A stretch of 64,000 nt of DNA from Acidimicrobiia bacterium. GTDB taxonomy: Bacteria; Actinomycetota; Acidimicrobiia; Spongiisociales; ZC4RG35. The stretch lies in assembly GCA_035620735.1 (NCBI GenBank), contig DASPGH010000125.1:30135-94134 (forward strand). Reading direction: 5' to 3'. How positions within the stretch are numbered: position 1 is the first letter of the stretch; each line of letters starts with the position of its first letter. Shown in pieces: positions 39,601 to 52,648 of this stretch. Under the pieces are notes generated by a model. The model made no database searches. It saw only the letters and a list, made by a program, of their open reading frames with translations, and was not told the origin of the DNA. The position numbers and the translations under genes were made by a program.

Positions 39601-39702
39601 GATCGAGTCATGAACCTCGAGCGCCTTCGCCATGGCTTCGGGATGCTCCTCCCACAAACGCGTGCTCGATTCGATGTCTGTGAAGAGGAATGTGTGAGCC
39701 AC
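36688..39702 (-). CDS. Class III adenylate/guanylate cyclase - STAND (NB-ARC-like) ATPase - TPR multidomain protein
   Basis: 1004 aa. Cyclase motifs FLFTDIESST, LKTTGDGVLAVF and GPTLNRAARI. P-loop GPGGAGKTRLA and Walker B LLVLDNFEQL. Long C-terminal TPR-like helical repeats. No LuxR HTH. Confidence 0.85.
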   Translation of the reverse strand: MAHTFLFTDIESSTRLWEEHPEAMAKALEVHDSILSNAIARGGGRILKTTGDGVLAVFERPADALVASISAQRAIGSSSWDATGPIRVRMGVHTGEAQSRADDFFGPTLNRAARIMAAGHGGQVLVSGATASALDGRLPEHASLRDLGKHRLKDLTDSEQLFQLDHPDIAREFADLLTLDARPNNLPQQATEFLGRVNEMAAIQVMLESAASRLLTLFGPGGAGKTRLALQVAAEQVNRYRDGVYFVDLSNERDPRTAFEAIVRALDLPVASDSDPLDVLKTRLRDRQMLLVLDNFEQLMAAAADVGELIQACPELEIIVTSRETLRIRAERVFPVPPLSMPDPRHDLAQLQDSEAVQLFVDRARSARPDFDLDAESGPVVAEICLRLDGLPLAIELAAARLNVLTPAELLQRLRDRLDVLSAGGRDLPDRQRTLWGAIAWSYELLDEGECRMFELLSVFSGASLEALEEVASSALGLGSTIDLMAGLVDKSLVRTDTSGTTTRYSMLLMIREFAETKLAESPDRERSVRQAHASHFAGVAASLRERLRSPDRDIAFADLESDIGNLRTAWGYWTQRADLDRLFQLLDVLWALHESRGWYHSAIELAREMLDALATADTTPELAGEELALRSSLARALMAVRGYDIEVEEAFNAALELSRENGSAAQQFPVMRALASYYMLSADLPKAAAMGEQILALGEEADDEIMRIEGHHVIGAAVSFGDVSVSLDHFDAAIDAYDPARHGSSRFRLGPNTGVAARVASGITLWLCGDVDKGVSRASEALDFARAIEHPFSVTYALYHNGFLSLLRSRYDEAIELALELREIATEHDYAIWQTLSTVLEGAASSGLGDVETGLARTEAGIDLYQGLTPPPVFWPFLLSLRATVHARAGDIGTGLRLVEDAMGMSMAAGDTLPWLAMQKADLVLGLPQPDHRTARVLYGKTIAASRDLGLKMVQLQALTRMVRLNRAVGEDPDMSRDLADLYSSFDPGHDEPDLIAAAHLLT

Positions 39703-40499: not shown

Positions 40500-41819
40500 G
40501 TGCCGGGCGTGACAACCCCAATCCCAGACTACGTTTCGCCTGCTTTGACAGACTCATACCGCCAAACCATCAGGGAGCTCTCTGATCGGCTCGTTGCCGC
40601 CCAGCGCCCGATCCGGGTCTTGACTGCCATCAACTGGGACGACGACATCAAACGCCAGTTCTTCGAAGCAGGTTTCAAAGAGCAACCCCGCGTCGACGAG
40701 ACCTACTACAAGCGAAAGGAGCTCAAGCTCGACCCGACCGCAACGCGCGAGGAGCTCCGGCACATCGAGGCCGAGGTCAACTCGAAACTCGGTCCGACCT
40801 CGTCGGCTGGAGCGCTCATGCGTTTCATGGCTCAGCAGTTCTCCCTGACTGTGGACATGATCGAAGCGAGAGGCAGCGATCGCTTCTGTGAGATGTCACG
40901 TCTTCTCTACGGGACTCCCTCAGACGTCTTCCACGCCGGGGGCCCGACCGTCGCCGATCTGGCTCTGACGATGCGCAAGACGTTGGAAGCCAATGCCATG
41001 GCGATCATGAATGCTCCCGATGACCGGAACATCCCCGGCACCGTGGCCGTCGAGCGACTGAAGGCACAGCTCGCTGAATCGGTGGGACCGGACAGGATCG
41101 AGGTCAGGGCGGACGACGCCATCGCCGCCGACGCCGCCGCAGGGTCCGACTACATCAAGATGAGGGAGGACCGCCGCTTCTCACAGCGTGATATCGATCT
41201 CCTCGAGGCTCACGAGGGATGGGTTCACGTCTCGACCACGATGAACGGTCTGGCCCAACCGGTCTGCACCTTTCTCGGCAAGGCTGCACCGCGGACCACC
41301 GTGACCCAGGAGGGTCTGGCTGTGCTCACCGAAATGCTCAATCTTCGTAGCCATCCCCTTCGTCTCGCCAAGCTGATGCGTCGCATCGACGCCATCGCCA
41401 TGGCGACGGAGGGAGCCACCTTTCTCGAGGTGTTCAACAGCCTCCGTGAGGAAGGGCTCTCCGACGATGATGCCTGGACAACCACGAGCCGGGTGTTCCG
41501 GGGTAGCGTCCCCGAGGGACCGCCGTTCACCAAGGACCTGGGTTATGGCAAGGGTCTCATACTCACTCTGGTCTACGTGAGGATGGCCATCAGATTCGGT
41601 AAAACCGATCGGATACCTCTGCTGTTCTGCGGGAAAGTCGACCTGCTCGACATGGCCGCTCTCCATGATCTCTATGAGGAGGGGCTGGTGGAGCCGGCCG
41701 AGTTCGTGCCGCCCCCGTTCAACGACCTTCCCGCCCTCGCCACCACCCTTGCCATGGGCAGGTTCACCTCACAACTGGACATCGAGCGGCTCTCCCAGGA
41801 TTTCGCCCATTTGTTCTGA
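40500..41819 (+). CDS. DUF1704 / QEGLA-motif protein (putative carboxypeptidase-like)
   Basis: 439 aa. ..HEGWVHVST.. and the diagnostic ..VTQEGLAVLTE.. motif are present. GTG start. Confidence 0.7.
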   Translation: MPGVTTPIPDYVSPALTDSYRQTIRELSDRLVAAQRPIRVLTAINWDDDIKRQFFEAGFKEQPRVDETYYKRKELKLDPTATREELRHIEAEVNSKLGPTSSAGALMRFMAQQFSLTVDMIEARGSDRFCEMSRLLYGTPSDVFHAGGPTVADLALTMRKTLEANAMAIMNAPDDRNIPGTVAVERLKAQLAESVGPDRIEVRADDAIAADAAAGSDYIKMREDRRFSQRDIDLLEAHEGWVHVSTTMNGLAQPVCTFLGKAAPRTTVTQEGLAVLTEMLNLRSHPLRLAKLMRRIDAIAMATEGATFLEVFNSLREEGLSDDDAWTTTSRVFRGSVPEGPPFTKDLGYGKGLILTLVYVRMAIRFGKTDRIPLLFCGKVDLLDMAALHDLYEEGLVEPAEFVPPPFNDLPALATTLAMGRFTSQLDIERLSQDFAHLF

Positions 41820-41848: not shown

Positions 41849-42592
41849 TCAAGGGGTCAACCCGAACCACTCTGCGAGAAGGGTCTCCCACTCCGAGTCC
41901 TGCACGGGCGTGTCGGACCATGTGCCACCCCTACGGAAACGGATCCGGCCTTCGAGAAGGGTGACACGGTCGGGGCCTCCGTCGATGAGGCGGGTGGCGA
42001 AGCGCGTCTTGGTCCATTGCAGCCCGGGTTCGGTTTGGAGCATCAGTGACGCATCCTCGAAGTCGGCCGGCAGCCGCGGGGTTGGGTCGAACCGGTACTG
42101 CGGTTCCGCTGCTCCGTCCTCACCCAGAGCCAGGAGTGTCGTCGTCTCCCCGTCGAAGACGAAGCCGAACATGCCGCTTCCCCCGTCGTGGGGTCCCTCG
42201 GAGTCCAGAGGCAGAGGTCGGATGAACGAATCACCGAAGCCGACATCGACCAGATAGGCGCGATCCAACTCGACACGCAGCGTCAGATGGGAGGGAATGG
42301 TTGCCTCGGAGAACAGGACTGTTGCCGCGTAACGGGTGACGTCATAGCCGAGAGCGGTCAACAGTGCGGCAAATGACCCGTTCAACTCGAAGCACCAGCC
42401 ACCCCGGCGTCTGTCCACCACCTTGGTGACCGACCAAAGGTCGTCGGTCCTCACACCGCGGCGGGCGAAGACGTCGAGGTTCTCGAACGGCACGACGCTG
42501 AGATGCGCTCGTTGCAGTCGTTCCAGGTTGGTCAGATCGGGCTCGATCGGCGGATCGATGCCGAGCAAGGCGAGATAGGCATCGACGTCCAT
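41849..42592 (-). CDS. nat: Arylamine N-acetyltransferase
   Basis: 247 aa. ..VPFENLDV.. and the catalytic-Cys motif ..RRGGWCFELNG.. are present. Confidence 0.85.
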   Translation of the reverse strand: MDVDAYLALLGIDPPIEPDLTNLERLQRAHLSVVPFENLDVFARRGVRTDDLWSVTKVVDRRRGGWCFELNGSFAALLTALGYDVTRYAATVLFSEATIPSHLTLRVELDRAYLVDVGFGDSFIRPLPLDSEGPHDGGSGMFGFVFDGETTTLLALGEDGAAEPQYRFDPTPRLPADFEDASLMLQTEPGLQWTKTRFATRLIDGGPDRVTLLEGRIRFRRGGTWSDTPVQDSEWETLLAEWFGLTP

Positions 42593-42604
42593 GAGCCGAT
42601 TGTC

Positions 42605-43315
42605 TCATGAGCGCGTAGTCGGGTCATCTGACATGCCGCGGGCCAACTCGCTGGCGAGGAACATGGACGAGTTGACCGTGGCGTGGACCAACCAAGGTGC
42701 CAGTAGACCACCGGTGCGACGACGCAACCACGAGAGGCCCAGCCCGGCGACGCCAGCTGCCACCGAGCCCCCGATGACCACCGCCACCCGACGGTGAAAC
42801 GGCCAATCCTGTGAGACGCCGCCTTGGACGCGAGATGTCGGGATGAGATGCCACACGGCAAACGCCCCTGCAGATAGGAGGTCGGTCCGCCATCTGCCTC
42901 CCCCGATCGTGGCGGGGAGAACTCCCCGGAAGGCAACTTCTTCGAAAAGGGCGGTCCCGATCGGGAAACGGATCAATATGCGATTCAGGATGTTTTCATC
43001 GCCGCCAATTCGTGTTCGACCCTCGGAGAGGAGTACCCGAAGTCGCGGGTGAGCGATGCCGGCCACGGCACCCGCAGCCGCTGCGGCGGCGATCATGCCA
43101 CCGGCTCTCAAACTACTGTGAGCATGGCGCACACTCAGCCCCATCTCCTCCCACGTCGCCCCGGACTGGCGTCCGATGACCACCAGAGTGGCGGAGATTG
43201 CGAGATTCCCGCCGACGTAGCCCTTCTCGTTGAGAAGCGTGTTCTGTATCAGATTGTGGGCGCCGAGGATTCCCAGCACGACACGGGCATGGCCGTCTTG
43301 GGACGATGGGGTCAT
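42605..43315 (-). CDS. CPBP-family (CAAX/Abi) intramembrane glutamic protease
   Basis: 236 aa polytopic. Motifs FEEVAFRG, AFAVWH and LVHATVN are present. Its ATG overlaps the stop of the upstream cyclase-STAND gene (ATGA at 43312-43315). Confidence 0.8.
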   Translation of the reverse strand: MTPSSQDGHARVVLGILGAHNLIQNTLLNEKGYVGGNLAISATLVVIGRQSGATWEEMGLSVRHAHSSLRAGGMIAAAAAAGAVAGIAHPRLRVLLSEGRTRIGGDENILNRILIRFPIGTALFEEVAFRGVLPATIGGGRWRTDLLSAGAFAVWHLIPTSRVQGGVSQDWPFHRRVAVVIGGSVAAGVAGLGLSWLRRRTGGLLAPWLVHATVNSSMFLASELARGMSDDPTTRS

Positions 43316-46300
43316 TCCCGGGATTCGAGCCCTCGTCGAGCAGGCGCGATGTCACCCGCCGCACCCTGCCACTTGGCCATGAAGCCCTCACGGAGGGTCT
43401 GATCGGCGATCCCGGAGGCGATGGCGGAAACGACCGAGCTCGCAGACTCTTGGTGTGCCGCGGCTTCGGCGTCATTGCCCTCCGCGGTGGCGAGCTTGGC
43501 CCGTGTTCGGAGGATCTCGATGAGACGGAGACGTTGACCACGTGACATCGCCTCCTCCTGCGCCTTGGTGAGGGCCCGATCTGCCGCCTCGTTCTCGCCG
43601 GACAACCAGGAGAGGAGCCCCTCGGCATAGCCGACCTGGGCGAAGTAGAGCCCAAGACCCTTGGCTTCGATGAAGTTGACCGCACCCGTGATGTCAGTGG
43701 CCGCCGCAGCCAGGTCGTCGGAGTCGATCCCGGCGAGCGCGCGACCGACGAGAAGCCTGGGCTTCTCCATGAACTGTGAGGTCGAGGAGGCGGCGAGCCC
43801 CTTGCTGAACTGTTCGGATGCAGCCTTCTGATGACCGATCAGAAGGCTGGCGAAACCGAGATCGGCCCGCACCGAGCTCGCCAGGAACTCGCCGATCGGC
43901 CCAGAGAGACGGTCTTCTGCCTCGGCAATCAGATCGGGAACCTGATCCACGAGCCCGGCCGTCGCGTAGACACGAGCCATCCCGGAGTATCCGACCGCGG
44001 CGGTGAACGGCTGGCCCAAAGCCGTGGCGACCCGGGTCACGTCGAGGCATTGGCTGAGTGCCTCCTCTATCTCACCCAGCTCGTAATGACATGAGGCCAG
44101 CTGGTTGTGGCCAATCGCAACGAAGAACGACCCGTAGCGGTCCAGAGTCGCCACCGCCCCCGTCGACTCCTCCAAGGCCTCTCGAATGTCCCCGTGCGCC
44201 AGCTTGGCCGCAGCCGAGCCGGTCAACCGGACCGTGGCCAGAGCTTCCTCATGACCAGCTTCCTCAGCCTCCTCCAGCGCCGACTCGACGGCGGGCAGGG
44301 CACGTTCCCAGTCGAGCAAGGCGACATAGTTGGTGGCCCGACGAACCATTCCCATGAGACGCACGGCATCCACCCCCTGCGCTTCCCCCAGCCTGACCGT
44401 CTCCTCGTCGTGGGCGGCCGCCTCGCCGAGTTGACCGCCCATCGAGGCCACGAAGCACGCGTTCATGTGGTACTCAGCCAGCCCCAGTTCGTCGTTGTTC
44501 TCCTCGGCGATGCGACGGGCATCTGCGAGATACTCACCCGCCTTCTTCAAGTCGGCTCCGATCGAAGCTGTTGCATATGCGAGTCGGTTGAGCGCGGCCA
44601 CTTGAGCCTCGGGCCGCTGATTGTCTTCGCCATACTCGAAGAGCCGTTGGTAGGAGGCCGCCGCCTTGGAGAGGTCGGGGATCAGGGCAAAAGCGTCGCC
44701 AAGCGTGTCGTGGGCGAGGACTATCAGCTCGGGATCGGCGTCGTCAGGCGTGTTCTCTATGGCCGCCTGGAGGAGATCGATGGCGTCGGCAAGGGCCATG
44801 GTTCTCGTCGCAGCCACGCCGGCAGTAACCAGATATGGATAAGCGTCGCTGATGGCGTCGGCGGCGATCAGATGGCGGGCGATGGCTGCGGAGTCTCCGT
44901 TGCCCTCGATCAGATGATCGGCGACCCGACGATGCAACTGACGACGGGTGCGACGCAGAATCGTCTCGTAGGCGGCCTCCTGGATGAGTGCATGACGGAA
45001 GCCGAGCAAGTCTGGGCGTTCCGGGACCTCGACGAGGATCCCGGCACGAAGGAGATGGGAGAGCGATTCGTCCAGATTCGGGTCGGCAACCAGAGCCGAC
45101 AGGGTCACCCGGTCGAACTCCGATCCGAGGACCGAGGCCATCTGCACGACATAACGCTGCTGCTCTCCGAGACGGTCGAGCCGGGCCGTCAAAAGCCCGC
45201 GCAAGCTCGAGGGGACCTGGCTCTCGTCGAAATCCCCTGAGCCGATCTCGCCCAGGGCACGGACCATCTGCTCGATATAGAGCGGATTCCCCTGCGATCG
45301 GTCGAGGATGCCCTCCTTGGCGTGATCGGCGATCGAGGCTCCCTGGAGCAGCGAGTCGAAGAGAGCAGAGCTCTCTGCCATGTCGAAGGGCTCGAGAGCG
45401 AGTGCCGTGTACCGATGCGGATGTGCCCGTTGCGCGACTTCGTGGAGACGCCAGCTCGCTTCGTCCCGATAGGGTCGCATCGCAAACACCAGACCGAGCG
45501 CTGCCGACTCGGTGAGGCTCATCATCTCCTCCACGACGGCGAGGGAGAGGTCGTCAGACCAGTGGAGGTCTTCGAGGACGACGATGGTCGCACGCCGGTT
45601 GACCACCGCCCGCAGATAGGAGATGGCTGCCTGGTTCGCCTTCGTGTGGAGTATTTGTGTGGCCAGGCTCTCGATGAAGCCGGCCTCCGTCTCTGGGAGC
45701 GGGACACCGGCGATGAAGCCGAGGTATGCCGCCGTGTCGGAGTCGTCGATCCCCTCGGCGGCCACTGCTTCCCCTACCCGTTGGAAGCCCGGCTCAGCGT
45801 TGTCGGGAAACCACCACCTCTGGAGGAGATCGGCCACCGTTGAGTAAGGGCGGCCGGAGTCATAGGACCGGCTCGCCGCCTGAATCCAGTTCAACTCACC
45901 CGGTTGGTCGTGATGGAAGGCTCGATCGGCCGCACCGTCTGCTCGTCGGCCGAATTCCTCTATGAGACGGGTCTTTCCGACGCCGGCGTCGGCGATCACG
46001 GAGACGATCTGACCCGACCCACCCACGACTAAAGCCATAGCCTCGTCGAGTTTCGCGAGCTCGTCGCCTCGGCCGACCATTGGACCGATGTCAGACGACG
46101 AGCCCCGTCCCAGATAGCGGATGACACGGAACGCCGGAACAGGCTCGGTCTTGCCTTTGACGTCGATGGGACCGAGCTCCTCGGCTTCGAACACTCCATT
46201 GGTCAACGAGAGAGTGTGTCCGGTGACCCGGAGGGTGTCGGGCTCTGCGGTCTGTTCCATTCGTGCCGCCACGTTGATGGCATCCCCTAGGGCCGTGTAT

Positions 46301-46959
46301 TCGACCCGGAGGTCGGATCCCATCGCACCAACCACGACCAAACCGGTGTGGATGCCGACCCTGACATGAGCAGGCAGACCCCAGCGTCTTTCGACGGTCT
46401 CGCTGTAACCGGCGGTGGCCTCGACGATCTCGAGCCCTGCTCGAATAGCACGCACCGGGTCGTCCTCGTGAGCGATTGGCGCCCCGAAGAAGGCGAGGAC
46501 GGCGTCTCCGCGCAGTTGGGCCAGTGTCCCCTCGTAGCGATAGATCGGTGCGATCAGCCTCTCGAAGAGGCCATTCATGATGTCCGCCCAGTCTTCAGGG
46601 TCGAGGCGCTCGGCCGATGACGTGGAGCCCTGTACGTCGGCGAAGAGCATGGTGACAGTGCGGCGCTCTCCTTCCATGGCGTGCCCGTCCCGGGCGGAGC
46701 GCATCTTGGCCAGGAGCTCCTCGGGTAGGTAACGACTGAGGTCGTCGGTCGGGCGGACCGACTGCTCAGGCACCGCCGCAGCGGCCCCGGCGCTCAGCGG
46801 GTTGCCGCAATTTCGACAGAAGCGATCGTCGGGGTCAGCGAGAACTCCACACACCGGGCACGGGTAAGGCAGCGCCGTCCCGCACTGGGAACAGAACCTG
46901 GCTCCTTCCGAGTTCTCGTGACCACAGTTGTGACACTCCACGTCGTCATTCCTTCCCAT
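43312..46959 (-). CDS. Double zinc-ribbon - class III cyclase - AAA/STAND ATPase - TPR multidomain protein
   Basis: ORF 43312..47040; start is ATG 46959 (MGRNDDVECHNCGH..) or ATG 47040. Zinc ribbons CHNCGH..CSQCG and CPVCG..CRNCG. Cyclase motifs MLFADVQGST, LRGDAVLAFF and GDAINVAARM. P-loop ADAGVGKTRL and Walker B VVLEDLHWSD. About 600 aa of TPR-like repeats. Confidence 0.85.
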   Translation of the reverse strand: MGRNDDVECHNCGHENSEGARFCSQCGTALPYPCPVCGVLADPDDRFCRNCGNPLSAGAAAAVPEQSVRPTDDLSRYLPEELLAKMRSARDGHAMEGERRTVTMLFADVQGSTSSAERLDPEDWADIMNGLFERLIAPIYRYEGTLAQLRGDAVLAFFGAPIAHEDDPVRAIRAGLEIVEATAGYSETVERRWGLPAHVRVGIHTGLVVVGAMGSDLRVEYTALGDAINVAARMEQTAEPDTLRVTGHTLSLTNGVFEAEELGPIDVKGKTEPVPAFRVIRYLGRGSSSDIGPMVGRGDELAKLDEAMALVVGGSGQIVSVIADAGVGKTRLIEEFGRRADGAADRAFHHDQPGELNWIQAASRSYDSGRPYSTVADLLQRWWFPDNAEPGFQRVGEAVAAEGIDDSDTAAYLGFIAGVPLPETEAGFIESLATQILHTKANQAAISYLRAVVNRRATIVVLEDLHWSDDLSLAVVEEMMSLTESAALGLVFAMRPYRDEASWRLHEVAQRAHPHRYTALALEPFDMAESSALFDSLLQGASIADHAKEGILDRSQGNPLYIEQMVRALGEIGSGDFDESQVPSSLRGLLTARLDRLGEQQRYVVQMASVLGSEFDRVTLSALVADPNLDESLSHLLRAGILVEVPERPDLLGFRHALIQEAAYETILRRTRRQLHRRVADHLIEGNGDSAAIARHLIAADAISDAYPYLVTAGVAATRTMALADAIDLLQAAIENTPDDADPELIVLAHDTLGDAFALIPDLSKAAASYQRLFEYGEDNQRPEAQVAALNRLAYATASIGADLKKAGEYLADARRIAEENNDELGLAEYHMNACFVASMGGQLGEAAAHDEETVRLGEAQGVDAVRLMGMVRRATNYVALLDWERALPAVESALEEAEEAGHEEALATVRLTGSAAAKLAHGDIREALEESTGAVATLDRYGSFFVAIGHNQLASCHYELGEIEEALSQCLDVTRVATALGQPFTAAVGYSGMARVYATAGLVDQVPDLIAEAEDRLSGPIGEFLASSVRADLGFASLLIGHQKAASEQFSKGLAASSTSQFMEKPRLLVGRALAGIDSDDLAAAATDITGAVNFIEAKGLGLYFAQVGYAEGLLSWLSGENEAADRALTKAQEEAMSRGQRLRLIEILRTRAKLATAEGNDAEAAAHQESASSVVSAIASGIADQTLREGFMAKWQGAAGDIAPARRGLESRE

Positions 46960-47079
46960 CCGAAGCTGACCGACAGTCGGGCGATTCCCATACCGTGGAA
47001 TCCTGGACGCCCGAGGATATCGGAAGGTATCTCGCTCCAACGAGCACTACGGGCCCTGGCCGCTGGTAAAACCGACTTG

Positions 47080-50028
47080 ATGCCGGAGATGGGCCACAAG
47101 CGAAGCCGCATGCTCGCCTCTGTAGGCATTCGCCCCGATGAGCTGGGGCTGTCGGCCTGGATGGCAACGCTGTTCCTGGTGACCCAGGCCAGCCACGGAG
47201 TCGGGGCCAATGCGGCAGACACGCTGTTCTTTCTGCGCTACGGAGTGGAGGACCTGCCGCTGATGATCTTCCTTTCAGGCCCGGCCGTGATGGTGGCGAT
47301 CATCGGTCACTCTGCAGGGCTTGCCTGGAAGGGAGCGAGGGTCTGGTTGATGGCGATCATGGGGCTCTCCGCGGCATGGGCAGCAGTCCTCTGGTCCGGG
47401 ATCTTCGTTGGCTCCGATGCCATCTACCCGGTGATATGGGTCTCGACGCAGGTGCTCATCTTCCTGACCCTCACCGTTGTGTGGAACGCCGCCGGAGCGG
47501 CCTGCACCACCCGTCAGGCGAAGCGTCTGTTTCCGGTCTTCGCCACCGCCGCGGTGGCCGGGGGAGTGATGGGAAACCTGTTGGTGGGCCCGCTCACGTC
47601 TCTGTTCGGTGCGGAGAGCCTTCTGTTGGTTCAGGGTCTTCTCCTGCTGGCCGCCACCTTCCTGGTGCGTCGATCGTCCTCCTTCTTCAGGTCCGAAGCC
47701 GGAGAGAAGGAGCCGGTGAGGGTGGAGATGGCACGGGCCTTTTCCTCGATCCGCTCCAGCCGGCTCCTGAAGCTGGCCGCCGGTGTCGTGTTCCTTCTCT
47801 TCGCTCTGTTCTTCCTTGTGCTGTTCCCCTTCAGCGAGATCGTCACTGCGACGTTTCCCGGCGAAAAGGAGATGGCGGGTTTCCTCGGCCTGTTCTCATC
47901 GGTGGCTACTGCGGCCACCTTCTTTTTCTCCTTGCTGGCGACAGGCCGTCTCTTCTCGCGTCTGGGGCTGATCGTGACCCTGCTCACCGTGCCGGCCGTC
48001 TATCTCGTTGGCTTCTCGGTGTGGCTATTGGCTTTCGGGATCGTCACCGCCACTCTCTTTCGCGCTCTGCAGTGGGTCGCGGTGAACTCTGTGCAAACCA
48101 CCGCATACAGCGCTCTCTTCAACGTGCTCAGCACCCGCAGACGCGGTCCTGTCCTGTCCCTCATGACTGCGATTCCCGCTCAGCTCGGGACAATGGCCGC
48201 CGGTTTGATCCTGCTGCTCGGCTCCGGTCTCTCTCAGGACACGCTCTTCGTGGTGGCCGTTCTGATGGCGGCCGCAACTGTGGCTCTGGTGGCGGCGATG
48301 CGCCCCGCCTACGTCTCGGCCGTGGTCGATGCGGTGCGGCGGGGTTTGGTGGGCGTCTGGGACTCGCCTCATACAGGGGTGATATCGCCGGTGGACAGGG
48401 ACGTGGTCCGGGTCCTGGAGAGTCACCTCACGGATCCACGTCCCCGGGCCAGAGCCATCGCCGCCGCGGGTCTCGGCTCTCTGGGGGACGATTCGGCGCT
48501 CACCGGTGTGGAGGCTCTTCTCGACGACGAGGACCCACTGGTCAGATCTGCCGCGTTCGCGGCGATGTGCCAGATCGAGCCGGCGGCCCTCGAGCCCCGT
48601 CTCGTGCTCGCGCTCTCCGATGAATCTGCCGAGGTGCGTCTCAACGCCATTCGATACCTCGCCTCGACCGGGGAGACCGAGCTCCCCACCAGCGTTTTGG
48701 CAACCGTGCTCGACGACCCCGACGCCAGGGTTCGAGCCGCGGCGGCATGGATGGCCCCCCCAGAATCGGGACGGCTGGTCGTTCACGACCTGGTGTCCTC
48801 AGGCGACGGCGAATCGGCTCGAGCCGTATTCGAGGAGATGACTCGTCACCCGGGCGTGACGTTCGACCTGTCCCCGGTGGACTACATCGATGACGACGAT
48901 CCGGGGGTGCGTGCGGCAGCCGTTGCCGCAGTCGCATCGTCCGGCTCGGACCTGGAAAGGGTCGTGCCCAGCCTCGACGACAGATCGTTGAGGGTTCGCC
49001 GGGCGGCAGCACGGGCCCTTGCGAGATCCGAAGAAGGGAGAGGTTTGTTACTGGAGGTACTCGAAGTCGGGAGTGTCATAGCCACCGAGGCCGCCCTCGA
49101 TGCCCTGACTCCGGTGGAGACCCTGGATCCGCGTTTTACCACGTGGGCTGCCACCGAGGCGCAGAGAGCTGCCTACCTGGCGGGTCACAGTCGCGTCCTC
49201 GACGCCGAGCTGGATTCTCCACAGGGCCGCTATCTCGTTCGTGTCCTGGACAGTCGGGTCGATCGGCTCATCCATTGGGTGTTGATGGCCATGACCACCC
49301 CGACCACGAAGGAGATAATGCCCGTGGTGGCCCGGGGCGTCGACTCCGATGACCCCGAGACCAACGCCCAGGCCATCGAGGCGCTCGAGTCGGTGGGCGA
49401 GCGCTCGGTCCTGACCGTTCTGCTACCTCTACTCGAGCAATCCAGTGACGGAGAAGTGGAGAATGCGCATCGCAGCTCCCTCCAAGAGCTGAGCAGGGAT
49501 TTCGATCCGTGGTTGAGCGGTCTCGCACTGAGGTGCCTGGAACAGATCGCCGAAAGGAGTGACGTGGCAAGGTTGGACGGGATCGCCGGCGACCAACTCG
49601 ACACACTCGATGAGATGGGACGAATTCTCGTCCTACAACGGGTGCCGATGTTCTCAGGGCTCGACCCCGAAGACCTGATCCTCGTGGCGAGATTCACCAA
49701 AGAGGTTCGCTTCGACCCAAAGGAAGTGATCTATCGAGAAGGGGATCCGGGCACGGAACTCCTCGTGGTCGTGGATGGTCTCGCAGTGGTGACCAGGACC
49801 AGGGACGGTATGAGACACCTGATCGAGACCTACGGCTCAGGCGAGCATGTGGGTGAGCTGTCGTTGCTAACCGGGGGTCGCCGTTCAGCAGATGTCGAGG
49901 CCGGCGACGAGGGTTTGCATGGCTTGGTGGTGGGGAAGTCGGAATTGATCGCGATCCTGGAGGAACGTCCCGCGGTTGCTGTCGGGATGCTGGGGACCCT
50001 GGCCGCTCGTCTGGTCGAACAGACCTGA
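47080..50028 (+). CDS. Polytopic (about 12 TM, MFS / ADP-ATP-carrier-like) membrane domain - HEAT repeats - cyclic-nucleotide-binding domain protein
   Basis: ORF 46918..50028; first plausible start is ATG 47080. The N-terminal ~430 aa are hydrophobic. At least 5 HEAT-like repeats (DDEDPLVRSAAFAAM, SDESAEVRLNAIRYL, DDPDARVRAAAAWM, DDDPGVRAAAVAAV, DDRSLRVRRAAARAL). The C-terminal CNB domain has an intact phosphate-binding cassette GELSLLTGGRRSADV. Confidence 0.8.
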   Translation: MPEMGHKRSRMLASVGIRPDELGLSAWMATLFLVTQASHGVGANAADTLFFLRYGVEDLPLMIFLSGPAVMVAIIGHSAGLAWKGARVWLMAIMGLSAAWAAVLWSGIFVGSDAIYPVIWVSTQVLIFLTLTVVWNAAGAACTTRQAKRLFPVFATAAVAGGVMGNLLVGPLTSLFGAESLLLVQGLLLLAATFLVRRSSSFFRSEAGEKEPVRVEMARAFSSIRSSRLLKLAAGVVFLLFALFFLVLFPFSEIVTATFPGEKEMAGFLGLFSSVATAATFFFSLLATGRLFSRLGLIVTLLTVPAVYLVGFSVWLLAFGIVTATLFRALQWVAVNSVQTTAYSALFNVLSTRRRGPVLSLMTAIPAQLGTMAAGLILLLGSGLSQDTLFVVAVLMAAATVALVAAMRPAYVSAVVDAVRRGLVGVWDSPHTGVISPVDRDVVRVLESHLTDPRPRARAIAAAGLGSLGDDSALTGVEALLDDEDPLVRSAAFAAMCQIEPAALEPRLVLALSDESAEVRLNAIRYLASTGETELPTSVLATVLDDPDARVRAAAAWMAPPESGRLVVHDLVSSGDGESARAVFEEMTRHPGVTFDLSPVDYIDDDDPGVRAAAVAAVASSGSDLERVVPSLDDRSLRVRRAAARALARSEEGRGLLLEVLEVGSVIATEAALDALTPVETLDPRFTTWAATEAQRAAYLAGHSRVLDAELDSPQGRYLVRVLDSRVDRLIHWVLMAMTTPTTKEIMPVVARGVDSDDPETNAQAIEALESVGERSVLTVLLPLLEQSSDGEVENAHRSSLQELSRDFDPWLSGLALRCLEQIAERSDVARLDGIAGDQLDTLDEMGRILVLQRVPMFSGLDPEDLILVARFTKEVRFDPKEVIYREGDPGTELLVVVDGLAVVTRTRDGMRHLIETYGSGEHVGELSLLTGGRRSADVEAGDEGLHGLVVGKSELIAILEERPAVAVGMLGTLAARLVEQT

Positions 50029-50068
50029 AAGACCGGTCCACTACGCTCCGCGACCGAGGAGGTGTGGT

Positions 50069-52027
50069 GTGAGCGTCGAAGTCGCCCGCGACGCGGTCAA
50101 GAGCAAAGACTGGTCGTCGGCGGTTCAGGAATTCGAGGGTGTCGAGGGCGAGCTTTCGCCTGATGACTCGGTCCTCTTGGCCGATGCCCTCTGGTGGTCG
50201 GCGCGTCCCGATGAGGCGATGGAAGCGTACCAGCGGGCGTTTCAGGGCTTCGTCAGCGGCGATCGGAAAGGGGAGGCGGCGACGATCGCGGCGACACTCT
50301 CCTATCTGTCGATGCGTCGCATGTCCGAATCTGCTGCCATGGGTTGGCTTTCGCGGGCACAGACCTTGCTCACGGACGAGGCGGAGTGTCCTGGTGACGC
50401 CTGGGTTGCCGTGCTTGAGGCGGCTCACGCTCTGTTCGCCTCGGGCGACCTCGAGTCCGCCAAGGAATCCGCCGACAGGGCCATCGAGATCGCAAGACGA
50501 CAGAGAGTGCTCGGAGCCGAGGCGTTGGCGCTCAGCTTCAAAGGCGTTGCCACCACAAACCAGGGAAAGTGGCGCGAAGGCATCAGAATGATCGACGAGG
50601 CCACCGTGATGGCTACCGCTGGCGACGGGGATCTCCGATCGTCGAGCGACGTCTTCTGCATCATGATGGGCGTCTGTTCGAGTCTCGCCGACTACAAGCG
50701 CGCTTCTGAATGGACCGATCAGGCCGAACGCTGGATGAATGTGAACTCCCTTGGGGGATTCACCGGGGAGTGCCAGGTCCACCGGGCCGAATTCAAGCGA
50801 CTGCGTGGTGATTGGTTCCAGGCCGAGCACGATGCTCGGGTGGCGTGCACGGAGCTGGAGCGGTTTCATCTGCTCGACAGCCTGGGGTTCGCCAATTACG
50901 AGATCGGGGAGGTGCGTCGTCGCATGGGCGACCTCGACGCCGCCGAGGAAGCATTCACCCGCGCCTACTCGTACGGGCATTGGGCCCAGCCCGGATTCTC
51001 ACTTCTCATGATGGATCGCGGCGACCCTGATCGCGCTGCCGCCTCCATCGCATCAGCACTACAGACCACCGGGGTCGACGCCACCCGAGGCGATCTCTTG
51101 ACCAAAGGGCATCTTCTCCCCGCTCAGATCGAAATCGCCATGGCACGTGGCGATCTCGAAACGGCGCGGAACGCGGTCAAACAGTTGGGGGAAGTCGCCG
51201 AGACCTATGACTCCCCGGCCTGGGAGGCGATGCTGCTCACCTGTCGGGGAGCCCTTGCCCTCGCAGAGGGCCAAGCCGGCGACGCGGTCACCACCCTCGA
51301 CCGGGCCTGGCGACGGTGGCAGACGATGGACCTCCCCTACGAAACGGCGCGTGCTCGCGAGTTGCTCGGTCGGGCACGCACGGCCGTTGGTGACGACTCC
51401 GCGGCAGATCTCGAGCTGAGGGCGGCCTGGGCGACCTACGAGAAGCTGGGAGCCCGTCTCGACATGGAGAGAATTCAGAAGTCGATGGGAGGGGCCACCA
51501 TGGGCGCCTCGAGCCGGGGCGAGCGGGAGACGAAGGCATTCATGTTCACCGACATCGTCACTTCCACCGACCTCGTGGGTCTCATCGGCGACGAGGCCTG
51601 GCAGCGTCTGCTCGACTGGCACGACCGCGAGTTACGCGCCTCGATCGCATCTCACGAAGGGGACGAGGTCCGGCACACCGGTGACGGGTTCTTCGTGGTT
51701 TTCGATTCGGCACGTCAGGCTCTGGACACAGCCGTCGACATCCAGCGCCGTCTTTCCGACCATCGTCTCCAGCATGGTTTCTCGCCGACCATCCGCATCG
51801 GCATCCATTTCACGGAGGCCACACGTCAACGTGGCGATTACGTGGGTCAGGGAGTCCATGTCGCCGCCCGAATCGGCGACATTGGTGCCGGAGACGAGAT
51901 CGTCGTCTCCGATGCGCTGTCTCGTGCCGCCGGTGCGGTGCCCTATCAGCTCAGCCAGGTGCGTGAGGTCGACTTGAAAGGCGTCAACGACCCGGTCACG
52001 GTGATGAACGTCGACTGGCGCCGGTAG
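50069..52027 (+). CDS. TPR-like N-terminal domain - class III cyclase protein
   Basis: ORF 49976..52027. Preferred start is GTG 50069 (GAGGAGG 5 nt upstream). C-terminal cyclase motifs FMFTDIVTST, VRHTGDGFFVVF and GQGVHVAARI. Confidence 0.8.
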   Translation: MSVEVARDAVKSKDWSSAVQEFEGVEGELSPDDSVLLADALWWSARPDEAMEAYQRAFQGFVSGDRKGEAATIAATLSYLSMRRMSESAAMGWLSRAQTLLTDEAECPGDAWVAVLEAAHALFASGDLESAKESADRAIEIARRQRVLGAEALALSFKGVATTNQGKWREGIRMIDEATVMATAGDGDLRSSSDVFCIMMGVCSSLADYKRASEWTDQAERWMNVNSLGGFTGECQVHRAEFKRLRGDWFQAEHDARVACTELERFHLLDSLGFANYEIGEVRRRMGDLDAAEEAFTRAYSYGHWAQPGFSLLMMDRGDPDRAAASIASALQTTGVDATRGDLLTKGHLLPAQIEIAMARGDLETARNAVKQLGEVAETYDSPAWEAMLLTCRGALALAEGQAGDAVTTLDRAWRRWQTMDLPYETARARELLGRARTAVGDDSAADLELRAAWATYEKLGARLDMERIQKSMGGATMGASSRGERETKAFMFTDIVTSTDLVGLIGDEAWQRLLDWHDRELRASIASHEGDEVRHTGDGFFVVFDSARQALDTAVDIQRRLSDHRLQHGFSPTIRIGIHFTEATRQRGDYVGQGVHVAARIGDIGAGDEIVVSDALSRAAGAVPYQLSQVREVDLKGVNDPVTVMNVDWRR

Positions 52028-52094
52028 ATCCGCTCGAGTTTCTCCTCCCCGGGCATCGGGTAATCACCGGGTCTCCGCGGAAGGAGGAGACCCA

Positions 52095-52517
52095 ATGCCA
52101 GAACGCATATCCGATCTGATGACCACCGACCCGGTCGCGATGACGAACCAAGCGTCTCTACGGGACGCCGCCCAGGCCATGCGCGACCGCGACATCGGCG
52201 ACGTCGTCGTGACCAAGCCAGATGGGACGGTCTGTGGCATCGTGACCGACCGCGACATCGTGGTCCGGGCCATCGCCGAAGGGCACGATCCATCAGCCAC
52301 GACGCTCGAGGATGTCTGCAGCCACCGACTGGTTTCGGTGGCTCCGGACGATCCCGTCGCCGTCGCCGTCAAGAAAATGGAGGAACAGGCCATTCGTCGA
52401 CTGCCGGTGATGGACAACGGCACCCTTGTCGGCATCGTCTCCATCGGCGACCTCGCGGTCGAGCGAGACCGCCGGTCGGCCCTGGGCGAGATAAGCGCGG
52501 CGGCTCCGAACAACTGA
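52095..52517 (+). CDS. CBS-pair domain protein
   Basis: 140 aa with two CBS motifs (..DLMTTDPVAM..DIGDVVV.. and ..LVSVAPDDPV..IRRLPVMDNGTLVGIVSIGDL..). Confidence 0.85.
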   Translation: MPERISDLMTTDPVAMTNQASLRDAAQAMRDRDIGDVVVTKPDGTVCGIVTDRDIVVRAIAEGHDPSATTLEDVCSHRLVSVAPDDPVAVAVKKMEEQAIRRLPVMDNGTLVGIVSIGDLAVERDRRSALGEISAAAPNN

Positions 52518-52541
52518 TCCGGTCGCCCTCGCGACGGCCAT

Positions 52542-52577
52542 GGTGCACCTATGCACCCTGACGGTGCATAGGTGCAC
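52542..52577 (+). terminator. 15-bp-stem hairpin after the CBS gene
   Basis: GGTGCACCTATGCACC-CTGAC-GGTGCATAGGTGCAC lies 25 nt past the TGA. No U-tract. Confidence 0.6.
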
Positions 52578-52648
52578 GACAGATGTTGTGAGGGGGCGCC
52601 GACACAGAGCTGTGCCGGCGGCTAGGTTGCGGGTTGGTTGGGAGGCCC

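What the first reader, a model, noticed from the sequence alone, without database searches (positions are those of the whole stretch)
41849..52517. Back-to-back cyclic-nucleotide 'writer/reader' operons: Zn-ribbon-cyclase-STAND + CPBP/Abi protease + NAT, divergent from a 12-TM/HEAT/cNMP-binding protein + TPR-cyclase + CBS
Seen in sequence, minus operon (46959->41849): a ~1215-aa protein with two zinc ribbons, class III cyclase motifs, a P-loop/Walker B NTPase and a long TPR array. Its stop overlaps the start of a CPBP/Abi intramembrane protease (ATGA, 43312-43315), and an arylamine N-acetyltransferase gene follows 12 nt after the CPBP stop. Across a ~120-bp spacer containing GATTCC-N8-GGAATC (46983-47002), the plus operon encodes a ~980-aa protein. 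That protein has a polytopic transporter-like domain, at least 5 HEAT-like repeats and a cNMP-binding domain with an intact phosphate-binding cassette (GELSLLTGGRRSADV). A TPR-cyclase gene follows 40 nt later, then a CBS-pair gene and a hairpin terminator. Inference: the cyclases make a cyclic nucleotide that is read by the membrane protein. The STAND/TPR parts would act as input sensors and the CPBP protease as a coupled membrane output. The layout formally recalls STAND-type and cyclase/cNMP-effector conflict systems, but it equally resembles housekeeping actinobacterial cyclase-ATPase-TPR regulators. I know of no characterised system with this gene combination.
Basis: partly seen in the sequence, partly recalled or inferred. 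Interest (0 to 1): 0.7.

Follow-up and report, generated by a model that had tools for sequence, protein, structure and literature searches.

The report
Cyclic-nucleotide cyclases paired with NTT-HEAT-cNBD transporter
The genes are all real, but only three of the six belong together across related bacteria: a nucleotide-transporter-like membrane protein with a cyclic-nucleotide sensor and the one or two cyclase genes beside it, a pairing that gives a first functional lead for a widespread, uncharacterised transporter family.

Summary
Comparative genomics splits the "two-operon system" in two.

Conserved core:
- The 982-aa membrane protein (47080-50028) has a 12-TM domain with the fold of ATP/ADP translocases (NTT/TLC). 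HEAT repeats and a cNMP-binding domain with an invariant phosphate-binding cassette follow.
- The NTT-HEAT-cNBD architecture was described in 2017 but has never been characterised.
- In 26 of 31 informative loci seeded with this protein, its immediate neighbour is a class III cyclase gene.
- That neighbour is usually the TPR-cyclase (50069-52027). Sometimes it is the zinc-ribbon-cyclase-AAA16-TPR protein (46959-43312), and sometimes both are present, in varying orientations.
- Two 2,130-2,154-aa proteins, 47% identical to each other, fuse NTT-HEAT-cNBD to a cyclase-AAA16-TPR of the second type.

Not conserved:
- The CPBP protease, the N-acetyltransferase and the CBS protein stay adjacent only in relatives 71-77% identical or closer. 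At that distance unrelated flanking genes are syntenic too.

There is no sign of a defence island, plasmid or phage. The most likely mechanism, inferred and not shown, is that the neighbouring cyclases make cAMP or another cNMP, which acts on the transporter through its cNBD. Moderately interesting: a new variant of a known kind.

The parts
47080..50028 (+). P4: NTT-HEAT-cNBD membrane protein, 982 aa. Contains an NTT/MFS-like 12-TM domain (~47131-48339), a HEAT solenoid (~48397-49569) and a cNMP-binding domain (~49615-50025).
   Evidence: Pfam finds HEAT_2 and cNMP_binding. The AF2 model has pLDDT 81.8. Best TM-domain fold matches are AtNTT1 (TMt 0.69) and Chlamydia NTT1 (0.67), and the cNBD matches GlxR/CRP at rmsd ~1.5. 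A TM-domain profile hits AtNTT1 at E=5.7e-5, including AKRLFP aligned to AKKFYP. Of 24 homologues, 8 hit PF03219 TLC and 12 hit MFS_1. Phosphate-binding-cassette residues G925, E926, L927, R935 and A937 are invariant in 23 homologues.
50069..52027 (+). P5: TPR-cyclase, 652 aa. TPR region ~50069-51478; class III cyclase domain ~51536-51991.
   Evidence: Pfam. Closest solved structures are Ma1120 and Rv1900c/LipJ. A full-length orthologue lies directly next to P4 in 18 loci, and an N-terminal fragment lies at a contig end in 2 more (L008, L018). The catalytic Asp pair, the Asp of DY and the Arg of AAR are invariant in 19 orthologues. Arg at the canonical Lys position is kept in 18 of 19, and His at the canonical Asn position in all 19.
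43312..46959 (-). P1: double-zinc-ribbon / class III cyclase / AAA_16 (STAND-type) NTPase / TPR-like solenoid, 1215 aa. Zinc ribbons 46795-46935; cyclase 46144-46662; AAA_16 45499-46080; solenoid ~43315-44862.
   Evidence: Pfam. Metal Asp pair, Asn and Arg, and Walker A and B are conserved in 15 orthologues. Orthologues lie next to P4 in L001, L007, L024, L029, L035, L036, L041 and L043. A P1-type module is fused to a P4-like protein in P0306 and P0385.
46960..47079 (.). 120-bp divergent intergenic spacer. It contains the palindrome GATTCC-N8-GGAATC (46983-47002, not conserved). It also contains a conserved block GCTGGTA(A/G)AACC that ends 6-7 nt before the P4 ATG.
   Evidence: Sequence; alignment with L001, L007 and L036.
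42605..43315 (-). P2: CPBP/Rce1-like intramembrane protease. Its start overlaps the P1 stop (ATGA). It is a lineage-specific neighbour, not part of the conserved module.
   Evidence: Pfam; motifs; adjacent only in L001 and L007; absent next to P1 orthologues in L024, L036 and L037.
41849..42592 (-). P3: arylamine N-acetyltransferase-family protein. A local neighbour only.
   Evidence: Pfam; catalytic triad. In L001 it is separated from CPBP by an inserted epoxide-hydrolase gene on the other strand.
52095..52517 (+). P6: CBS-pair protein, 140 aa. A local neighbour only.
   Evidence: Pfam. Found downstream of P5 only in L001; other loci have tRNA_edit, TetR or a 73-aa ORF there.
52543..52577 (+). 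Perfect 15-bp stem with a 5-nt loop, located after the CBS gene. Possibly a terminator without a U-tail.
   Evidence: not called by the terminator scan.

Best explanation
**What it is**
The region is part of a chromosomal, vertically inherited cyclic-nucleotide signalling cluster of an Acidimicrobiia bacterium. Its conserved functional unit has two kinds of component:
- P4, an NTT-HEAT-cNBD membrane protein.
- Its neighbouring class III cyclases: P5 (TPR-cyclase, co-directional, probably co-transcribed) and P1 (zinc-ribbon-cyclase-STAND-TPR, divergent).

**Proposed mechanism** (inferred, not shown)
1. The TPR/STAND modules of the cyclases sense cytoplasmic inputs and set cyclase activity.
2. 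The product is most likely cAMP. The non-canonical specificity residues leave this open.
3. The product binds the C-terminal cNBD of P4.
4. Through the HEAT solenoid, binding changes the activity of the NTT-like 12-TM transporter domain. The transported substrate is unknown and is plausibly a nucleotide.
5. The HEAT and TPR solenoids probably hold writer and reader in one complex.

**What is not part of it**
The CPBP, NAT and CBS genes are neighbours of this lineage only and are not part of the unit.
For: **Shown: gene neighbourhood**
- A cyclase is the immediate neighbour of P4 in 26 of 31 informative P4-seeded loci spanning 44-98% identity.
- The layouts vary: P5 downstream, P5 upstream, P5 divergent, P1 divergent, P1 convergent, P1 downstream, or both.
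- Only about 6 non-adjacent cyclase domains occur in roughly 360-420 kb of the same flanks.
- P4 and P5 identities to the window co-vary (r=0.86).
- Adjacent P1-like/P4-like pairs occur even at 29-31% identity (L112) and in L043 and L069.

**Shown: fusions**
- P0306 and P0385 are NTT-HEAT-cNBD-cyclase-AAA16-TPR fusions, 47% identical to each other and colinear. The ORF is intact on a 321-kb contig.

**Shown: competence of the parts**
- The phosphate-binding cassette of the cNBD is invariant.
- Metal-binding Asp pairs and the transition-state Arg are conserved in both cyclases.
- The TM domain has the NTT fold and is as conserved as the cNBD (column identity 0.68 vs 0.70; HEAT 0.59). It has many invariant polar residues inside helices, as expected of a real substrate cavity.

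**Literature**
- PMC5381601 independently speculated that the cNBD tunes NTT transport through cAMP.
Against: - No biochemical data exist for any member.
- The direction of information flow (cyclase to transporter) is not determined.
- In the fusions the cNBD sits directly N-terminal to the cyclase, which fits feedback control of the cyclase equally well.
- Linkage is not universal. Five P4 loci lack a neighbouring cyclase (L005, L015, L023, L026, L031). So do distant family members at 27-33% identity (L039, L040).
- Two P5 homologues lie without P4, in cyclase-rich clusters (L121, L122).
- These genomes are cyclase-rich: the window has 4 cyclase genes in 20 kb.
- Both cyclases lack the canonical Lys/Asp specificity pair, so the nucleotide is unknown.
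- The window protein itself does not reach Pfam thresholds for TLC or MFS_1.
Confidence: 0.55

Rival explanations
1. The direction is reversed. P4 is a transceptor or scaffold: substrate occupancy of the NTT-like domain is relayed through HEAT-TPR contacts to the cyclases. The cNBD provides cNMP feedback on cyclase output rather than gating transport.
For: - In the fusions the order is NTT-HEAT-cNBD, then cyclase. By my own knowledge, regulatory modules of class III cyclases usually lie N-terminal to the catalytic domain, and cAMP-binding GAF domains activate Anabaena CyaB1.
- In the fusions the P4-like part replaces the zinc ribbons of P1.
- The neighbourhood evidence fits this reading as well as the main one.
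Against: Nothing discriminates between the two. The strong conservation of polar residues in the TM domain fits either ligand sensing or transport. cNBD-fused transporters with solved structures (SLC9C1, among the fold matches) are regulated by cNMP according to my own knowledge; these data do not show that.
Confidence: 0.22
2. P4 carries the cyclases' own substrate or product. It would be, for example, a cAMP exporter or an ATP importer whose cNBD senses the cytoplasmic cNMP level.
For: The TM domain's nearest solved folds are nucleotide antiporters, and sequence motifs are shared. It is tightly linked to nucleotide cyclases.
Against: Identity to NTT1 is only 15-16% and substrate-binding residues were not compared. 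NTT-family members carry diverse substrates (PMC5381601). There is no evidence on direction of transport.
Confidence: 0.1
3. The full six-gene, two-operon system proposed by the first reader is real, with the CPBP protease as a coupled membrane output and NAT and CBS as accessory parts.
For: The ATGA overlap of P1 and CPBP, the 12-nt gap to NAT and the short gap to CBS suggest co-transcription. The layout is kept in L001 and L007.
Against: - Adjacency is lost at 66% identity and below (L036, L024, L037, L006, L002, L004).
- In L001 an unrelated gene is inserted between NAT and CPBP.
- Unrelated flanking genes are equally syntenic at 76% identity.
- None of the 80 P1-family metagenome loci has CPBP adjacent; the nearest is 4.7 kb away on the other strand in L042.
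Confidence: 0.05
4. It is an anti-phage conflict system of the Pycsar or Avs/STAND type: a sensor-cyclase makes a cNMP that activates a membrane-disrupting cNBD effector.
For: The architecture formally resembles such systems: cyclase-STAND-TPR, and cNBD plus TM. PADLOC gives PycC and PycTIR-cNBD domain hits. Toxin-antitoxin genes lie near P1 in L036.
Against: - The PADLOC hits score no better than the generic Pfam domains (78 vs 83 bits).
- The P4 TM domain is a conserved 12-TM transporter fold with a ~400-aa HEAT solenoid, not a small pore-forming effector.
- The family is near length-invariant and widespread in the class, and its identity co-varies with that of P5.
- Flanks are housekeeping genes and GC content is uniform.
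- No plasmid match was found, and the only phage match is a 13%-coverage cNBD-domain hit.
Confidence: 0.03
5. The adjacency is chance: common signalling genes lying together in a cyclase-rich genome.
For: There are four cyclase genes within 20 kb of the window. Similar cyclase clusters occur in L121 and L122.
Against: Immediate adjacency occurs in 84% of loci, against about one cyclase per 60 kb elsewhere in the same flanks. The same two orthologous cyclase families recur in shuffled orientations. Two diverged fusions exist.
Confidence: 0.05

Closest known systems
NTT-HEAT-cNBD fusion proteins (Major et al. 2017, Genome Biol Evol, PMC5381601)
   Same: Same three-part architecture: an NTT/TLC-like 12-TM domain, HEAT repeats and a C-terminal cyclic-nucleotide-binding domain. 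Function is unknown. The authors speculated that cAMP from an adenylate cyclase could tune transport.
   Different: That survey listed one actinobacterial NTT sequence. It reported neither linkage to cyclase genes nor a cyclase fusion. The Acidimicrobiia clade is so diverged that the window protein itself misses the Pfam TLC threshold. Monophyly with the published clade was not tested here.
ATP/ADP translocases AtNTT1 and Chlamydia pneumoniae NTT1 (PDB 9j3l, 9j3m, 9j3n; Pfam TLC PF03219)
   Same: They are the best structural matches for the TM domain (TMt 0.67-0.69 over ~480 columns). A profile hit of E=5.7e-5 includes a shared AK(R/K)(L/F)(F/Y)P motif.
   Different: Identity is only 15-16%. 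Canonical NTTs have neither HEAT nor cNBD. Substrate and exchange mode are unknown here.
Transporters and channels regulated by cyclic nucleotides through a cNBD (sea-urchin SLC9C1, HCN/CNG channels)
   Same: A membrane transport domain carries a C-terminal cNBD. SLC9C1 chains appear among the fold matches. They are a functional analogy for cNMP-controlled transport.
   Different: The transport domains are unrelated (TMq ~0.12 overall). They have no HEAT solenoid and no linked cyclase gene. This is analogy only.
Mycobacterial multidomain class III cyclases: Rv0386-type cyclase-ATPase proteins, Rv1900c/LipJ and M. avium Ma1120
   Same: P5's catalytic domain is closest to Ma1120 (1e-21) and Rv1900c (1e-15) (NCBIfam LipJ). 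P1 shares the cyclase plus AAA_16 ATPase plus helical-repeat layout. Like Rv0386 (my own knowledge: Gln/Asn in place of Lys/Asp), it has non-canonical specificity residues (Gln/Arg/His and Glu).
   Different: P1 has N-terminal double zinc ribbons and no HTH. P5 has an N-terminal TPR domain instead of a lipase domain. Neither orthologous family is characterised.
Pycsar (pyrimidine cyclase anti-phage system)
   Same: A class III-type cyclase is paired with a protein carrying a cNBD and TM segments. PADLOC gives domain-level hits.
   Different: Pycsar effectors are small TM or TIR proteins in sporadically distributed two-gene cassettes. The defining features are not met (see membership test).

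Membership tests
NTT-HEAT-cNBD fusion family (PMC5381601) | N-terminal NTT/TLC-type 12-TM transporter domain | tested here: met
   - AF2 model shows 6+6 TM helices.
- The only TM-domain matches in the top 50 PDB hits are NTT1 structures (TMt 0.67-0.69).
- A profile of 24 TM domains hits AtNTT1 at E=5.7e-5.
- Of 24 homologues, 8 hit PF03219 (best 9e-6).
- Caveat: the window protein alone gives only MFS_1 at 19-20 bits, below the cut-off.
NTT-HEAT-cNBD fusion family (PMC5381601) | HEAT-repeat domain C-terminal to the transporter domain | tested here: met
   HEAT_2 scores 1.5e-28 in 4 stretches, and HEAT and HEAT_EZ also match. The model has about 23 helices between residues 440 and 830.
NTT-HEAT-cNBD fusion family (PMC5381601) | C-terminal cyclic-nucleotide-binding domain | tested here: met
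   PF00027 scores 1e-15. The domain superposes on GlxR/CRP at rmsd ~1.5. The phosphate-binding cassette G-E-L...R-S-A is invariant.
NTT-HEAT-cNBD fusion family (PMC5381601) | Placement inside the single monophyletic NTT-HEAT clade | not tested
   No phylogeny was built with the published cyanobacterial, chlamydial or oomycete sequences.
NTT nucleotide transporters | Nucleotide (counter-)exchange transport activity | not testable with these tools
   Needs uptake assays in E. coli or proteoliposomes.
Class III nucleotidyl cyclases (P1 and P5) | Cyclase homology domain with two metal-binding Asp | tested here: met
   PF00211 scores 83 bits for P1 and 35 bits for P5. FADV...GDA in P1 and FTDI...GDG in P5 are invariant in orthologues.
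Class III nucleotidyl cyclases (P1 and P5) | Transition-state Asn and Arg | tested here: inconclusive
   P1 has both (INVAARME). P5 has His at the position four residues before the Arg (GVHVAARI), invariant in 19 orthologues. From memory, Rv1900c has a similar substitution; I did not verify this here.
Class III adenylyl cyclases (canonical ATP specificity) | Lys/Asp substrate-specifying pair | tested here: not met
   P1 has Gln (Arg or His in orthologues) and an invariant Glu. P5 has Arg (18 of 19 orthologues) and an invariant Asp. The product therefore cannot be assigned. The two other cyclases in the window do have Lys/Asp/Asn/Arg.
STAND NTPases (P1) | P-loop NTPase with Walker A and B, followed by a helical-repeat sensor | tested here: met
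   AAA_16 scores 4.5e-15. GVGK[TS] and VLEDLHW are conserved. C-terminal TPR hits are sub-threshold in the window protein but recorded for homologues.
Pycsar | Effector made of a cNBD fused to a small TM or TIR killing domain, in a compact, sporadically distributed defence cassette | tested here: not met
   P4 is a 12-TM NTT-fold protein with a HEAT solenoid. More than 300 homologues were found, and the 120 listed are almost all full-length. Flanks are housekeeping genes. PADLOC gives domain-only hits.
Pycsar | Cyclase produces cCMP or cUMP | not testable with these tools
   Needs enzyme assays.
Avs-type antiviral STAND | Match to Avs/antiviral STAND models; defence-island context | tested here: not met
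   No PADLOC STAND or Avs model hit P1 at E<=0.01. No mobile or defence context was seen.
CPBP intramembrane proteases (P2) | Motifs EExxxR, FxxxH and HxxxN/D | tested here: met
   EEVAFR, FAVWH and HATVN are present. PF02517 scores 2.6e-14.
Arylamine N-acetyltransferases (P3) | PF00797 fold with the Cys-His-Asp triad | tested here: met
   PF00797 scores 4.6e-44. RGGWC, PSHL and DVGFG are present. Residue assignment is by motif recall, not by alignment to a structure.

The most novel reading that the evidence does not exclude
The Acidimicrobiia NTT-HEAT-cNBD proteins are cyclic-nucleotide-gated nucleotide transporters that form a physical complex with their own dedicated cyclases through HEAT-TPR contacts. 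The complex would be a self-contained membrane signalling machine, which in some lineages has become a single 2,100-aa polypeptide. If so, this would give the first function for the whole NTT-HEAT family, which the 2017 survey reports in cyanobacteria, chlamydiae and oomycetes. It could also include export of cAMP itself.
Probability: 0.3. Interest if true: 0.75.

Novelty: new variant of a known kind. Interest (0 to 1): 0.5.

Why it matters
NTT-HEAT and NTT-HEAT-cNBD proteins are widespread. The 2017 survey lists free-living bacteria, cyanobacteria, pathogenic chlamydiae and oomycetes. I found no functional study of them.

The conserved pairing with class III cyclases, and the natural fusion to one, give a concrete, testable hypothesis: cNMP-controlled transport, or transporter-controlled cNMP synthesis. 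They also identify which gene pairs to clone.

The work marks two large, uncharacterised cyclase families with conserved non-canonical active-site residues whose products are worth determining.

It removes the CPBP, NAT and CBS genes from the picture, which avoids a misleading 'six-gene system' annotation.

Tried and rejected
- **Palindrome as operator.** GATTCC-N8-GGAATC is present but not conserved in L001, L007 or L036, and a 6-bp inverted repeat in 120 bp is near chance expectation. Rejected.
- **Promoter/terminator scan of 41.5-53 kb**. The counts do not exceed shuffles and nothing was called in the spacer or after CBS. The hairpin was found only by the repeat search.
- **PADLOC**. Only generic cyclase, cNBD and HEAT hits. 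The defence reading was rejected.
- **Plasmid and phage searches**. Nothing apart from a lone cNBD hit.
- **Rfam and tRNA scans of the window**. Nothing.
- **Single-sequence search of the TM domain against PDB**. E=9.3 only; a profile was needed.
- **Literature searches.** Searches combining HEAT, cNBD, MFS, cyclase and Actinobacteria, or Acidimicrobiia and cyclase, found nothing. A search for the NTT1 structure paper failed, so NTT substrate-binding residues were not compared.
- **Distant family members.** L039 and L040 (27-33% identity) have no adjacent cyclase, so the linkage cannot be extended to the whole family.
- **Reciprocal test from P5.** By exact contig-length matching, at least 20 of the listed P5 homologues share a contig with a listed P4 homologue. 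The two long unmatched contigs I could inspect lack P4.

Full report
**1. What is in the sequence**

The window has 61-66% G+C with no compositional break at the locus. The ORF list, translations and Pfam confirm six genes.

On the minus strand:
- P1, 46959-43312, 1215 aa. It has a double zinc ribbon, a class III cyclase domain and an AAA_16 P-loop NTPase (Walker A GVGKT, Walker B VLEDLHW). A ~500-aa helical C-terminus gives only sub-threshold TPR hits.
- P2, 43315-42605, a CPBP/Rce1-like protease. Motifs EEVAFR, FAVWH and HATVN are intact.
- P3, 42592-41849, an arylamine N-acetyltransferase-family protein with the Cys/His/Asp motifs.

On the plus strand:
- P4, 47080-50028, 982 aa: polytopic, with HEAT repeats and cNMP_binding including GELSLLTGGRRSADV.
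- P5, 50069-52027, a TPR-cyclase.
- P6, 52095-52517, a CBS pair.

All junction details hold:
- ATGA overlap at 43312-43315.
- 12-nt gap between CPBP and NAT.
- 120-bp divergent spacer.
- 40-nt gap between P4 and P5, with GAGGAGG before the GTG start.

The palindrome at 46983-47002 exists. A perfect 15-bp hairpin follows the CBS gene at 52543-52577, without a T-run.

**2. Organism and surroundings**

Homologues of P4, P1 and P5 are almost all from Acidimicrobiia MAGs. One GTDB contig, L008, is 98% identical to the window.

Flanking genes are ordinary chromosomal ones:
- a two-component system
- acetolactate decarboxylase
- an SLT-type lysozyme-like protein
- a MATCAP-like peptidase
- a ferritin-like protein
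- a methyltransferase
- DUF72
- an aromatic amino-acid lyase

No tRNA or Rfam hits were found. There is no plasmid match, and the only phage match is a lone cNBD hit.

Two further class III cyclase genes lie nearby. One is a 1004-aa cyclase-NB-ARC-TPR protein at 36688-39702(-). The other is a 422-aa cyclase at 55817-57085(+). That makes four cyclases in 20 kb and none in the rest of the window.

**3. What P4 is**

- P4 has more than 300 homologues, and the 120 listed are almost all full-length, about 980 aa.
- An AlphaFold model built on 23 homologues (pLDDT 81.8) shows 6+6 TM helices, about 23 helices of HEAT solenoid, and a cNBD.
- Against the PDB, the only matches for the TM domain in the top 50 are the ATP/ADP translocators AtNTT1 (TMt 0.69) and Chlamydia NTT1 (0.67). 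The cNBD superposes on GlxR/CRP at about 1.5 Å.
- A profile of 24 TM domains hits AtNTT1 at E=5.7e-5, across a shared AKRLFP/AKKFYP motif.
- Of 24 homologues, 8 hit Pfam TLC and 12 hit MFS_1. The window protein alone stays below threshold.
- The phosphate-binding-cassette residues are invariant.
- The TM domain (column identity 0.68) is as conserved as the cNBD (0.70) and more conserved than the HEAT region (0.59). It has many invariant polar residues inside helices.
- This NTT-HEAT-cNBD architecture was described by Major et al. 2017 (PMC5381601) as widespread and functionally unknown. I found no later functional work.

**4. Synteny test**

I collected loci through P4 homologues and searched them with all six window proteins and with a cyclase-domain HMM.

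- Of 31 informative, non-duplicate loci (44-98% identity), 26 have a class III cyclase gene as P4's immediate neighbour.
- In 20 of these the neighbour is a P5 orthologue. It is usually directly downstream on the same strand. It is upstream on the same strand in L014, L027 and L030, and divergent in L017 and L018.
- In 5 the neighbour is a full-length P1 orthologue: divergent in L001 and L007, convergent in L024, and downstream in L029 and L035.
- L001, L022 and the window have both types. L010 and L021 carry other cyclases.
- In the same flanks only about six non-adjacent cyclase domains occur in roughly 360-420 kb.
- P4 and P5 identities to the window co-vary (r=0.86).

Seeding from P1 gave:
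- the window layout at 85% identity (L041);
- P5<- ->P4 ->P1 at 52% identity (L043);
- P1 and P4 divergent at 66% identity (L036);
- adjacent pairs at 29-40% identity (L112, L069);
- stand-alone cNBD ORFs next to P1-like cyclases (for example L052 and L116).

By contrast, CPBP and NAT are adjacent only in L001 and L007, and CBS only in L001. At that distance (71-77% identity) the unrelated flanks are syntenic too (one search compared). In L001 an epoxide-hydrolase gene is inserted between NAT and CPBP. More distant P1 orthologues are followed by RHH/PIN (L036), an alcohol dehydrogenase (L037), or abut P4 itself (L024).

**5. Rosetta-stone fusion**

- A search of 1.84 billion representative proteins with the P4 TM domain found 3,260 relatives. 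Most are 900-1,070 aa, and two are 2,129 and 2,154 aa.
- Pfam shows that P0306 is MFS/TLC-HEAT-cNMP_binding-Guanylate_cyc-AAA_16-TPR.
- Its C-terminal 1,100 residues are 35% identical to P1 over 821 residues and share P1's signature motifs.
- P0306 and P0385 are colinear and 47% identical.
- The P0306 ORF is intact on a 321-kb contig.
- A maintained fusion of a P4-like and a P1-like protein is strong independent evidence for a functional link.

**6. Are the cyclases competent?**

- P5 orthologues keep the two metal Asp, the Asp of the DY motif and the Arg of AAR invariant. Arg replaces the canonical Lys in 18 of 19 orthologues. His sits where Asn normally lies in all 19. The closest solved relatives are Ma1120 and Rv1900c/LipJ.
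- P1 orthologues keep both Asp, Asn and Arg. They have Gln/Arg/His at the Lys position and an invariant Glu at the Asp position.
- Both therefore look active but of unpredictable nucleotide specificity.
- The other two window cyclases are canonical.

**7. Limits**

- Five P4 loci have no neighbouring cyclase.
- Two distant family members (27-33% identity) have none either.
- Two P5 homologues lie without P4, inside cyclase-rich clusters that resemble the window's.
- The linkage is therefore a property of this Acidimicrobiia clade, not yet of the whole NTT-HEAT-cNBD family. Local cyclase density is high.
- The direction of signalling, the nucleotide made and the transported substrate are all inferred.

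**8. Interpretation**

- Best explanation (confidence 0.55): the conserved unit is P4 plus P5 and/or P1. The cyclases make a cNMP, probably cAMP. It binds the P4 cNBD and modulates the NTT-like transporter, and the HEAT and TPR solenoids probably hold the proteins together.
- Main rival (0.22): P4 regulates the cyclases, and the cNBD provides feedback.
- A transport-of-own-nucleotide variant (0.10) is possible.
- The six-gene system, the defence reading and pure chance are each unlikely (0.05 or less).

**9. Novelty**

P4 is a diverged member of a described but uncharacterised architecture. P1 and P5 are members of large unstudied class III cyclase families. The papers I could search do not report either the conserved cyclase/NTT-HEAT-cNBD module or its fusion form. 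I therefore class it as a new variant of a known kind, with interest 0.5.

Noticed in passing
window 36688-39702 (-): A third class III cyclase: 1004 aa with an N-terminal cyclase domain that has canonical Lys/Asp/Asn/Arg, then NB-ARC/AAA_22 STAND NTPase and a TPR-like tail. Proteins of 1000-1004 aa with the same architecture lie near P5 homologues in L121 and L122. It is absent from the otherwise syntenic L001.
   Followed up: partly
window 55817-57085 (+): A fourth class III cyclase: 422 aa, with a canonical catalytic domain at residues 233-410 (191 bits). Together these make a 'cyclase island' of four genes in 36.7-57.1 kb, with none in the rest of the window.
   Followed up: partly
P0306 (L038 6001-12390) and P0385: Single polypeptides of 2,129 and 2,154 aa with the layout NTT/MFS-HEAT-cNBD-cyclase-AAA_16-TPR, 47% identical to each other. 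The 2017 NTT survey does not list this architecture.
   Followed up: yes
window 47060-47079; L001 ~9980-10000; L007 ~8170-8190: A conserved block GCTGGTA(A/G)AACC ends 6-7 nt before the P4 ATG in the window, L001 and L007. A similar CTAGAACC occurs in L036. It may be a -10-like element of a leaderless or very short-leader transcript.
   Followed up: no
L007 and L008 (both from MAG SMAG_U1792, DASUUP01): The same MAG holds a contig 98% identical to the window's P4/P5 and another contig with a P1-CPBP-NAT-P4 locus only 71-75% identical. Either there are two paralogous loci or the bin mixes two populations.
   Followed up: no
window 52095-52517 vs L001 15044-15463: The CBS-pair protein is 90.7% identical between the window and L001, whereas the neighbouring P1, P4 and P5 are 76-77% identical. 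It is unusually conserved for its context.
   Followed up: no
L010 3330-3713, L026 4751-5032, L030 2604-2987: Small stand-alone cNBD ORFs on the opposite strand lie next to P4 homologues (second P4 hits to residues ~840-980). Similar cNBD-only ORFs sit beside P1-like cyclases in L052, L075 and L116.
   Followed up: no
L034 10001-12972 and L020 10001-12965: The P4 homologue is split into two or three tblastn segments with overlapping or shifted coordinates. This suggests frameshifts, from either assembly errors or pseudogenisation.
   Followed up: no
window 52526-52622: Beyond the perfect 15-bp hairpin, a larger imperfect 32-nt inverted repeat (52526-52594) and a second GC-rich near-palindrome (~52597-52622) fill the CBS/ferritin-like intergenic region.
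   Followed up: no
window 40500-41819 (+): A bacterial MATCAP-family (PF08014, 6e-114) putative carboxypeptidase lies directly next to the NAT gene. The same MATCAP-NAT adjacency is seen in L001.
   Followed up: no
L036 8046-11442: Downstream of the P1 orthologue, where the window has CPBP, lie RHH-PIN, Fic and a second PIN gene. These are toxin-antitoxin-like modules.
   Followed up: no
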